DNA of 64,000 bases from Mobula hypostoma. Its lineage: Eukaryota. The translations under genes and the position numbers were made by a program. Numbering within the stretch: the stretch's first letter is position 1; each line of letters opens with the position of its first letter. The stretch covers positions 35,714,001 through 35,778,000 of the forward strand of contig NC_086108.1 of the NCBI RefSeq assembly GCF_963921235.1. The letters are read 5' to 3'. Under the pieces are notes generated by a model. It had not been told where the DNA came from and ran no database searches. It saw nothing but the letters and a program-made list of their open reading frames with translations. Shown here piece after piece: positions 27,530-28,239 of this stretch.

Positions 27530-28239
27530 TTCAGGGCCCCAAACAGTACTTCCAAGTGAGGCAACACTTCACTTGTGAGTCTGTTGGGGTCATCTATTGC
27601 ATCCGGTGCTCCCGGTGCGGCCTCCTCTACATCGGCAAAACCCAACGCAGATTGGGGGACCGCTTCATCGAGCACCTCCGCTCCGTCCGTCACAACAGAC
27701 AGGATCTCCCGGTAGCCACCCACTTCAGCTCTGCTTCCCACTCCCATTCAGATATGTCCATACATGGCCTCCTCTACTGCCATGATGAGGCTAAACTCAG
27801 GTTGGAGGAGCAACACCTCGTATACCGTCTAGGTAGTCTCCAGCCCCTTGGTATGAACATAGAATTCTCCAACTTCCGGTAATTCCCTCCCCCTCCCTTC
27901 CCCTATCCCTATGTCACTGTGCCCCCTCCCCCAGCTACCTACCTCCTCCCTCTTGGTTCCGCCTCCTTCTACCACCCATTGTGTTTTCCCCTATTCTTTC
28001 TTCACCTTTCCTGCCTATCACCTCCCTGTCTCCCTTCCCCCACCCCTTTATCTTTCCCCTTACTGGTTTTTCACCTGGAACATACTAGCCTTCTCCTTCC
28101 CACCCTCCCCCCACCTTCTTTATAGGGCTTCTGCCCCTTCCCCCTACAGTCCTGACGAAGGGTTCCGGCCTGAAACGTCGATCGATCTTTTCCACTGATG
28201 CTGCCTGACCTGCTGAGTTCCTCCAGCGTGTTGTGAGCG
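27530..28239 (+). mobile_element. Penelope-like element, right arm
   Basis: ORF 27556-27882 VIYCIRCSRCGLLYIGKT; whole palindrome flanked by tggcaggatacYtg (26773-26786 and 28240-28253). Confidence 0.93.
28147..28184 (+). ncRNA. Minimal hammerhead ribozyme motif, best-preserved copy
   Basis: cagtc CTGACGA a gggt-tccg-gcct GAAA C GTC gat; predicted cleavage after 28179; palindromic ACGT stem III. Confidence 0.8.

What the first reader, a model, noticed from the sequence alone, without database searches (positions are those of the whole stretch)
28147..28184. Minimal hammerhead ribozymes carried by the Penelope-like elements
Seen: the consensus of three young copies (14852, 26881 minus, 28147) is cagtc-CUGACGA-A-GGGU(UCCG)GCCC-GAAA-C-GUC-gaY. 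This has both hammerhead core boxes, a 4-bp stem II with tetraloop, an extra A after the CUGANGA box, a short stem I (guc/gaY) and a loopless palindromic stem III (ACGU). Older variants occur at 7311, 13660, 40966, 42501, 46156, 48167 and 49362, and a different family at 9535. Known: PLEs carry minimal type I hammerheads, proposed to cleave as dimers through the palindromic stem III. Inference: about 10 motifs in 64 kb suggests a very large ribozyme-motif load in this genome. CpG decay at CGTC has hit all copies but this one, which could still cleave read-through transcripts.
Basis: partly seen in the sequence, partly recalled or inferred. Interest (0 to 1): 0.78.

Follow-up and report, generated by a model that had tools for sequence, protein, structure and literature searches.

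The report
Decaying Penelope hammerhead motifs in ray
The flagged 38 bases match the already-described minimal hammerhead ribozyme motif at the end of Penelope-like jumping genes; this likely ray genome is unusually rich in them, but this copy carries its own mutation, sits in a long inverted repeat, and is likely a dead relic.

Summary
The motif is real and of a known kind. It lies 270 nt behind a GIY-YIG endonuclease frame whose closest relatives come from rays. It passes the published minimal-hammerhead descriptor of Cervera and De la Pena 2014: 3 hits in 64 kb, 0 in 300 shuffles. Core and stems are kept, with compensatory changes, in three distant Penelope families.

Only 3 of its 11 sites pass the descriptor; the rest are relics. 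The 28147 copy is the only one with an intact CGTC box, but it has its own CpG hit (C11.1 to U). CpG loss in the motif (3 of 12) equals the element-wide rate (20 of 78). The copy is one arm of a 1.4-kb inverted insertion, predicted to bury it in a hairpin on read-through. Its nearest same-strand partners are 13-14 kb away.

Density (about 47 per Mb, range 10-137, one window) may exceed published genomes. The scan noted this family many times elsewhere in this genome and in another. No cleavage was tested.

The parts
28149..28182 (+). Minimal type I hammerhead motif: stem I (3 bp, one G.U), box 1 28152-28158, extra A 28159, stem II 4 bp + tetraloop with G.U at 10.1-11.1, GAAA, palindromic ACGU 28175-28178, predicted cut after C28179
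   Evidence: non-ray covariance model E 4.4e-6
27529..27882 (+). 5'-truncated end of the element's frame: GIY-YIG endonuclease with two cysteines between the GIY- and YIG-like motifs; no reverse transcriptase part left
   Evidence: Pfam PF01541 E 1.8e-5, above cut-off; 75-86% identical to five Hypanus/Mobula proteins; alignment
27883..28239 (+). 3' non-coding end (pseudo-LTR part): pyrimidine-rich 270 nt, the motif, about 60 nt after the cut site; no tail on this arm
26787..27523 (-). Inverted 5'-truncated partner copy; its motif has C3 at 26913 (C15.2 to U); carries a 38-nt tail at 26787-26824
   Evidence: inverted arms 529 nt at 96% and 212 nt at 86%; GIY-YIG E 3.9e-5
26773..26786 (+). Left copy of a 14-nt target-site duplication (1 mismatch) inside a LINE relic
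   Evidence: read from the junction sequences; flanks match a window LINE copy with an RVT_1 hit
28240..28253 (+). Right copy of the 14-nt target-site duplication; the LINE relic continues
14197..14945 (+). Third young 5'-truncated copy; motif C3 at 14857 (G16.2 to A, N7 = G); 10-11-nt target duplication
7222..7429 (.). Old small palindromic insertion: minus arm with decayed motif (C3 7343), plus arm starting inside box 1 (about 7347)
11502..11681 (.).
13616..13697 (-). Old short relic; box 1 intact (C3 13693), second box lost
40909..41150 (-). Older-family 3' end; decayed motif (C3 40998)
42442..42604 (+). Older-family 3' end; motif C3 42506 with a 3-nt insertion before GAAA
46118..46287 (+). 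Older-family 3' end with tail; motif C3 46161, stems I and II broken
48106..49023 (-). Older-family copy with endonuclease frame and a C-x4-C-x2-C linker; motif C3 48199, box 1 broken
49315..49405 (-). Old short relic; box 1 intact (C3 49396), second box with 2 mismatches
60023..60159 (+).
8903..9580 (+). Different, decayed GIY-YIG-like frame without the cysteine linker (Penelope/Poseidon-like, inferred), followed by a decayed hammerhead-like motif at 9535
   Evidence: ESM Atlas feature score 0.97 to GIY-YIG clusters (family on 19% of members); not confirmed by Pfam or sequence search; motif

Best explanation
The motif is the minimal type I hammerhead sequence at the 3' end of a GIY-YIG Penelope-like retroelement, likely of the Neptune clade in a likely ray genome, and this copy is likely a passively copied, neutrally decaying relic that does not cut RNA. 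Shown: the motif, its place 270 nt behind the endonuclease stop, the inverted truncated partner, the one-sided tail and the target duplication. Inferred from published work: in the active master element, two motifs on a tandem transcript swap strands so that the palindromic ACGU forms stem III, and they cut weakly after C17, probably with help from the element's protein. Inferred here: reverse transcription starts near the 3' end, so almost every truncated insertion carries the motif, which explains the density without any host function. Each young copy has since taken one CpG hit in the motif. A transcript reading through this locus would fold into a roughly 700-bp hairpin that hides it.
For: Passes the published descriptor, 3 hits versus 0 in 300 shuffles. 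A model built only from non-ray loci ranks the three young copies first, E 1e-6 to 2e-5. Loci fetched by endonuclease protein alone (40-54% identity) carry the motif on the same strand behind the frame: strict core in 14 of 61 evaluable loci, 0 of 61 on the opposite strand, 0 of 42 upstream, 0 of 610 shuffles; 63 of 80 by the model, 8 of them training loci. Their commonest form is letter for letter the Acropora digitifera Neptune entry of the paper's Fig. S3. 5 of 7 pairs show two-sided changes across families. The CX2-5CxxC linker is present in relatives and in the 48565 copy. Inverted partner and tail are the described architecture, and 15 of 80 related loci show a minus-strand motif upstream of the endonuclease. 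CpG loss is 3 of 12 in the motif and 20 of 78 element-wide. Stem II is -2.0 versus -3.7 kcal/mol for the G-C copies, and the inverted repeat pairs 37 of 38 motif bases. Same-strand neighbours are 13.3 and 14.4 kb away.
Against: G.U at 10.1-11.1 is not a proven kill. It occurs in 8 of the 56 published representatives (my count; all with 6-7-bp stem II) and in 2 of 24 descriptor hits in related loci. In a 49-nt context this copy forms stem II more often (0.88) than the two G-C copies (0.26, 0.38). A transcript that starts inside the right arm, from a pseudo-LTR promoter (called likely), would escape the hairpin. The neutrality test has only 12 cells. The covariation rests on three outside families that I picked. 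Neptune versus Nematis was not separated by a tree. No full-length element and no cleavage data were seen.
Confidence: 0.85

Rival explanations
1. Same element, but this copy is still a working, weak ribozyme that cuts transcripts starting in the right arm, as a dimer in trans with RNA from other copies or with help from the element's protein.
For: All invariant core bases and the ACGU palindrome are intact. G.U closing pairs occur in published representatives. The anole element's motif cleaves in vitro when its protein is added. A run guessed to be RNA holds 4,127 contigs like this stretch, which shows the family, not this locus.
Against: Three of seven stem pairs are wobbles, and stem I probability is 0.10 or less in every context tried. 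The double-hammerhead fold is 18 kcal/mol above the best two-molecule fold, though the published-type motif shows a similar gap of 17. The locus has no reverse transcriptase part. The anole paper found no RNA-seq ends at the cut site.
Confidence: 0.1
2. The family motif is conserved for a role other than cleavage, such as a binding site for the element's protein or a stop or template-switch signal for reverse transcription, which would set the 5' ends of the many tiny and palindromic insertions.
For: 7 of 16 homologous 3' ends in the window begin at or inside the motif (about -13 to +24 of C3), and two small palindromes join inside it. Contig depth rises 2.6- to 3-fold at 28147 in three runs. 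Core mutants did not change insertion in vitro in the anole element.
Against: Old families may share only the motif and tail with my references, which gives the same pattern. The sample is small and has no formal null. Conserved columns across families are exactly the catalytic core. This rival can hold alongside the best explanation.
Confidence: 0.2
3. The motif is a chance match to a loose pattern inside a repeat.
For: Rfam has no hammerhead hit here. The 121-nt region is no more stable than shuffles (z 0.24) and its best fold is not the hammerhead.
Against: 0 hits in 300 shuffles; same position and strand in distant relatives; two-sided pair changes; near identity to a published family.
Confidence: 0.01

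Closest known systems
[quoted passage not shown]
   Same: Box 1 plus one extra nucleotide, G at 10.1, 4-bp stem II with tetraloop, GAAA-C-G-U-C loopless palindrome, 3-bp stem I, place at the element's 3' end, mostly lone copies on truncated elements, and pairs on opposite strands. The Acropora digitifera Neptune entry has the same two boxes and the same stem and loop lengths.
   Different: No cartilaginous fish is among the 56 aligned motifs or in Table S1. The flagged copy has U, not C, at 11.1.
Neptune clade of endonuclease-bearing Penelope-like elements and their insertion architecture (Craig et al. 2021, PMC8557442; read: passages found by term search)
   Same: C-terminal GIY-YIG domain with two cysteines between the motifs, CX2-5CxxC linker, inverted 5'-truncated partner, 30-40-bp tail at one end only.
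   Different: Only truncated ends are in the window; the clade call rests on the linker and the motif match, not on a reverse-transcriptase tree.
Poseidon element of the green anole and its protein-assisted hammerhead (Frangieh et al. 2024, PMC11167929; read: parts 1-2 of 4)
   Same: Hammerhead in the pseudo-LTR and a tail beyond it; gives the likely working mode (no cleavage without the protein, cleavage not needed for insertion in vitro).
   Different: Different clade; there the frame starts at stem II. Nothing was tested biochemically here.
Non-LTR retrozymes of animals (Li, Clavereau and Pollet 2026, bioRxiv 10.64898/2026.07.22.740005; read: part 1 of 5, section 14 and passages; supplements closed)
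   Same: Type I hammerheads derived from Penelope pseudo-LTRs; one cartilaginous fish was sampled and had them.
   Different: Retrozymes are head-to-tail tandem arrays. The copies here are dispersed or inverted, with same-strand gaps of 1.2-14 kb.

Membership tests
Penelope min-HHR (Cervera and De la Pena 2014) | Published descriptor: stem I 3-7 bp, CUGANGA plus optional base, stem II 3-7 bp, loop 3-10, GAAANNUH | tested here: met
   descriptor text, applied: 14857+, 26913-, 28152+ pass; 0 in 300 shuffles; the other 8 listed sites fail
Penelope min-HHR (Cervera and De la Pena 2014) | Extra nucleotide between 9 and 10.1 | tested here: met
   A28159
Penelope min-HHR (Cervera and De la Pena 2014) | Palindromic 15.2-16.2 without loop 3 | tested here: met
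   ACGT at 28175-28178; decayed in the other two young copies
Penelope min-HHR (Cervera and De la Pena 2014) | Highly conserved G10.1-C11.1 pair | tested here: inconclusive
   G-C in 7 of 9 aligned sequences, including the other two young copies, so met for the family; G.U in the flagged copy itself, as in 8 of 56 published rows
Penelope min-HHR (Cervera and De la Pena 2014) | Located in the flanking repeat at the 3' end of a Penelope-like element | tested here: met
   270 nt after the GIY-YIG stop, about 60 nt before the element end
Penelope min-HHR (Cervera and De la Pena 2014) | Conservation with compensatory changes across families | tested here: met
   5 of 7 pairs with two-sided changes, 0 of 500 shuffles reach it, slid controls 0-2 pairs; all 9 such cells come from three outside families
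Active hammerhead ribozyme | Self-cleavage 3' of position 17 | not testable with these tools
   only assembled contigs were available, which cannot show RNA ends
Endonuclease-bearing Penelope-like element | C-terminal GIY-YIG domain with the CCHH cysteines between the motifs | tested here: met
   PF01541 above cut-off in two arms; cysteines seen; definition
Endonuclease-bearing Penelope-like element | Single frame joining reverse transcriptase to the endonuclease | tested here: inconclusive
   window copies are truncated; longer relatives extend upstream into a reverse-transcriptase-like region by eye, but Pfam reported only GIY-YIG for them
Endonuclease-bearing Penelope-like element | Inverted 5'-truncated partner and 30-40-bp tail at one end | tested here: met
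   (38-nt tail on the left arm only)
Neptune clade | CX2-5CxxC linker upstream of GIY-YIG (shared with Nematis) | tested here: met
   P0003, P0004, P0005, P0013 and window 48565-49023; cut off in the flagged copy
Neptune clade | Reverse-transcriptase phylogeny | not tested
   no intact reverse transcriptase in the window; no tree was built
Non-LTR retrozyme | At least two consecutive tandem units each with a complete hammerhead | tested here: not met
   nearest same-strand homologues 13.3 and 14.4 kb away; definition
Rfam hammerhead families | Match to an Rfam hammerhead model | tested here: not met
   no hammerhead family among 28 matches at E<=5

The most novel reading that the evidence does not exclude
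Rays carry the densest ribozyme-motif load known in a vertebrate (tens per Mb), and the hammerhead fold acts as a stop or switch point for the element's reverse transcriptase, spawning a huge class of 100-200-bp, often palindromic insertions that begin at the motif. Because the two CpG-decay forms of the stem III palindrome (AUGU and ACAU) pair perfectly with each other, 'dead' copies could complement in trans and cut host RNAs at a low rate when the element's protein is present.
Probability: 0.1. Interest if true: 0.6.

Novelty: new member of a known kind. Interest (0 to 1): 0.2.

Why it matters
As found, it adds a cartilaginous fish to a family described in 2014, at a possibly record density. 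That makes rays a good place to ask what Penelope hammerheads do, which is still open: very many dated copies allow tests of selection and of breakpoint position. The flagged copy itself is a poor test object. A family copy with both G10.1-C11.1 and CGTC intact, in a tandem insertion, would be the one to assay.

Tried and rejected
Rfam scan at E<=5: no hammerhead; the top hits were simple-repeat matches to microRNA models at 40630-40830. No whole genome is held, so no genome-wide count was made. Sequencing runs: no listed holder is on record as RNA; all four runs laid were contigs and the table of molecule ends was empty; neither says anything on expression or cleavage. Summed contig depth was not used as a copy number. 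Viral contigs: 28 pattern matches, none a relative. The 8903-9535 frame: no phage match, no long homologue among 150 candidates, no Pfam GIY-YIG, pairwise E 0.029 to the flagged endonuclease; only the Atlas supports it. Host gene: 121 of 190 frames of 75 aa or more were scanned (those inside repeats already seen were left out) and gave only mobile-element-type or sub-threshold hits; short exons are not excluded, so I cannot say whether the locus is intronic. Nearest-neighbour energy of the double-hammerhead fold does not separate this copy from the published-type motif and was not used as proof of inactivity. Two papers checked for the effect of G10.1.U11.1 gave no measurement (passages of PMC2837043 and PMC544870). 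Paper searches for an earlier description in cartilaginous fish: Penelope+shark+ribozyme, Penelope/Neptune/stingray, Penelope-like+elasmobranch, hammerhead+Chondrichthyes (15 of 305 listed, swamped by shark ecology). None of the listed papers described this motif in rays. The library lacks most subscription journals and Repbase, and the 2026 preprint's supplements were closed and may list the cartilaginous-fish families. Rejected: retrozyme (no tandem), chance match, selection on this copy.

Full report
Observation. I applied the descriptor printed in the supplement of Cervera and De la Pena 2014. It finds three sites in the window, 14857+, 26913- and 28152+, and none in 300 dinucleotide shuffles. 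A stricter version that also asks for a Watson-Crick 15.2-16.2 pair leaves only 28152. Rfam has no hammerhead hit here. A profile of the element's 3' end finds 16 homologous ends at E<1e-4; the best hit on the reversed window was E 0.12. Seven of the 16 were in the seed. So the window holds three motifs and about eleven whole or partial relics, plus one candidate of another family at 9535.

The element. The motif lies 270 nt after the stop of a GIY-YIG frame (PF01541; distance). The five closest database proteins, 75-86% identical, come from Hypanus sabinus and Mobula hypostoma, so the host is likely a ray. Longer relatives and the window copy at 48565-49023 have a C-x4-C-x2-C linker. Craig et al. 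2021 give this linker for Neptune and Nematis and not for Penelope/Poseidon (passages). The flagged copy is the right arm of one insertion: a 14-nt target duplication with one mismatch (26773-26786 and 28240-28253), a 38-nt tail, an inverted truncated copy (26825-27523) and the forward truncated copy (27529-28239). The flanks match a LINE copy in the window that has an RVT_1 hit; the label CR1 for it is recalled. An inverted partner and a one-sided tail are the described Penelope architecture.

Conservation across families. I fetched 80 loci by the endonuclease protein alone, the best 80 of 528, at 40-54% identity. Nineteen had too little downstream DNA. Of the other 61, 14 have a strict motif on the same strand within 700 nt downstream, and 29 with at most one mismatch (my count of the table). 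Controls for the strict test were 0 of 61 on the opposite strand, 0 of 42 upstream and 0 of 610 shuffles. Most of these loci are one family, whose motif is letter for letter the Acropora digitifera Neptune row of Fig. S3; L025 and L066 are two further families. A covariance model from eight non-ray motifs ranks the three young ray copies first (E 1.1e-6 to 2.3e-5), then 46155 and 48166 (E about 0.006); four other sites are at chance level and two are missed (E-values rough). It hits 63 of 80 loci on the plus strand (8 were training loci) and 15 on the minus strand upstream of the endonuclease, the same inverted layout. In an alignment of six window copies without indels and three family representatives, 61 of 63 cells pair and 5 of 7 pairs change on both sides. 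All nine two-sided cells come from the three outside families, so this is a few events, not many.

Is this copy special? It is the only one of the 11 listed sites with CGTC, but it is not undamaged. Position 28171 is T where both other young copies have C, a CpG change that turns G10.1-C11.1 into G.U. In public contigs laid on this stretch, C makes up 46, 68, 81 and 26% of depth in four runs; at 28182 about nine tenths show C where this copy has T. Each young copy has one CpG hit in the motif: 3 of 12 cells, against 20 of 78 over the whole element. That is what neutral decay gives, on a small sample. Stem II drops from -3.7 to -2.0 kcal/mol, and stem I forms with probability 0.10 or less. Against this: G.U at that pair is seen in 8 of 56 published rows, all with longer stems (my count), and in 2 of 24 descriptor hits in the loci. 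In a 49-nt fragment this copy forms stem II better than the other two. I found no measurement of the G.U effect.

Could it cut read-through RNA? A plus-strand transcript crosses the antisense left arm first. The folded locus (-1466 kcal/mol) pairs 37 of the 38 motif bases with that arm. The nearest same-strand homologues are 13.3 and 14.4 kb away and decayed. In print, a monomer of this type showed no cleavage and dimers little. The anole Poseidon motif cleaved only with the element's protein, was not needed for insertion in vitro, and left no read ends in RNA-seq. An escape remains for transcripts that start inside the right arm. I found no host gene domain in the frames scanned and no usable RNA evidence.

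Mechanism. Shown: anatomy, family conservation, decay pattern. Inferred from the papers: in the master element, two motifs on a tandem transcript form stem III by swapping the ACGU palindrome and cut weakly, likely protein-assisted. Inferred here: insertions are built from the 3' end, so even tiny copies carry the motif, and density reflects amplification rather than host use.

Load. Three descriptor hits in 64 kb give 47 per Mb (95% Poisson 10-137). This is one window, picked because it was flagged, and no genome was available. A whale shark preprint reports expanded Penelope-like elements (passages). The 2026 retrozyme preprint found hammerhead-bearing tandem repeats in its one cartilaginous fish. 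My searches found no paper on this motif in rays. PMC6155905 and PMC7936874 were seen as passages only and add nothing on rays.

Side observation. Seven of the 16 ends begin at or inside the motif and two small palindromes join within it. Depth also rises about three-fold at 28147. Old families that share only the motif would give the same picture, so this stays a lead. Earlier notes of the scan report the same family, the same clustering and the same two-strand layout elsewhere; they are leads, not support.

Verdict. A correct catch of a known kind in a lineage absent from the original survey. The flagged copy is likely inactive. Interest 0.2; new member of a known kind.

Noticed in passing
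window 7222-7429 and 11502-11681: Two small old palindromic insertions made of two element ends joined inside the hammerhead motif (in box 1 and in stem II), with the tail on one arm only.
   Followed up: partly
window, 16 homologous 3' ends: Seven begin at or inside the motif (about -13 to +24 of C3), two begin after it, seven reach 40 nt or more upstream; no formal null.
   Followed up: partly
window 26887-26890 (-) and 14880-14883 (+): The two CpG-decay forms of the stem III palindrome, AUGU and ACAU, are perfect complements, and AUGU can self-pair with G.U wobbles, so loss of CGTC need not abolish stem III in a mixed dimer.
   Followed up: partly
window 40998-, 48199-, 42506+ and loose ends: The older family appears to have a longer stem I (up to 5 bp, with GACUG after the cut) than the young family (3 bp).
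   Followed up: partly
window 8903-9610: A second, decayed GIY-YIG-like element without the cysteine linker, likely Penelope/Poseidon type, with a long-stem hammerhead-like relic at 9535.
   Followed up: partly
window 14186-14196/14946-14955 and 26773-26786/28240-28253: Both young insertions have 10-14-nt target duplications and sit inside LINE relics.
   Followed up: yes
15 of the loci L001-L080 (e.g. L038:275-314, L035:415-454): A minus-strand hammerhead upstream of the endonuclease, i.e. the same inverted insertion layout in distant relatives.
   Followed up: yes
P0001, P0002, P0020-P0022: Annotated ray proteins with host-gene names contain pieces of this endonuclease frame, suggesting exonised or mis-annotated element fragments.
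   Followed up: no
window 42960-45865 (-): A broken but long LINE-type copy with endonuclease-like and reverse-transcriptase frames.
   Followed up: no
window 17061-17709 and 21415-22050: A 650-bp repeat pair at 78% identity with open frames and no Pfam hit.
   Followed up: no
window 1-309: A 92-bp-period tandem repeat at the window start, 98% identical.
   Followed up: no
window 40630-40830: TA/TG simple repeat that gives sub-threshold Rfam microRNA matches.
   Followed up: yes
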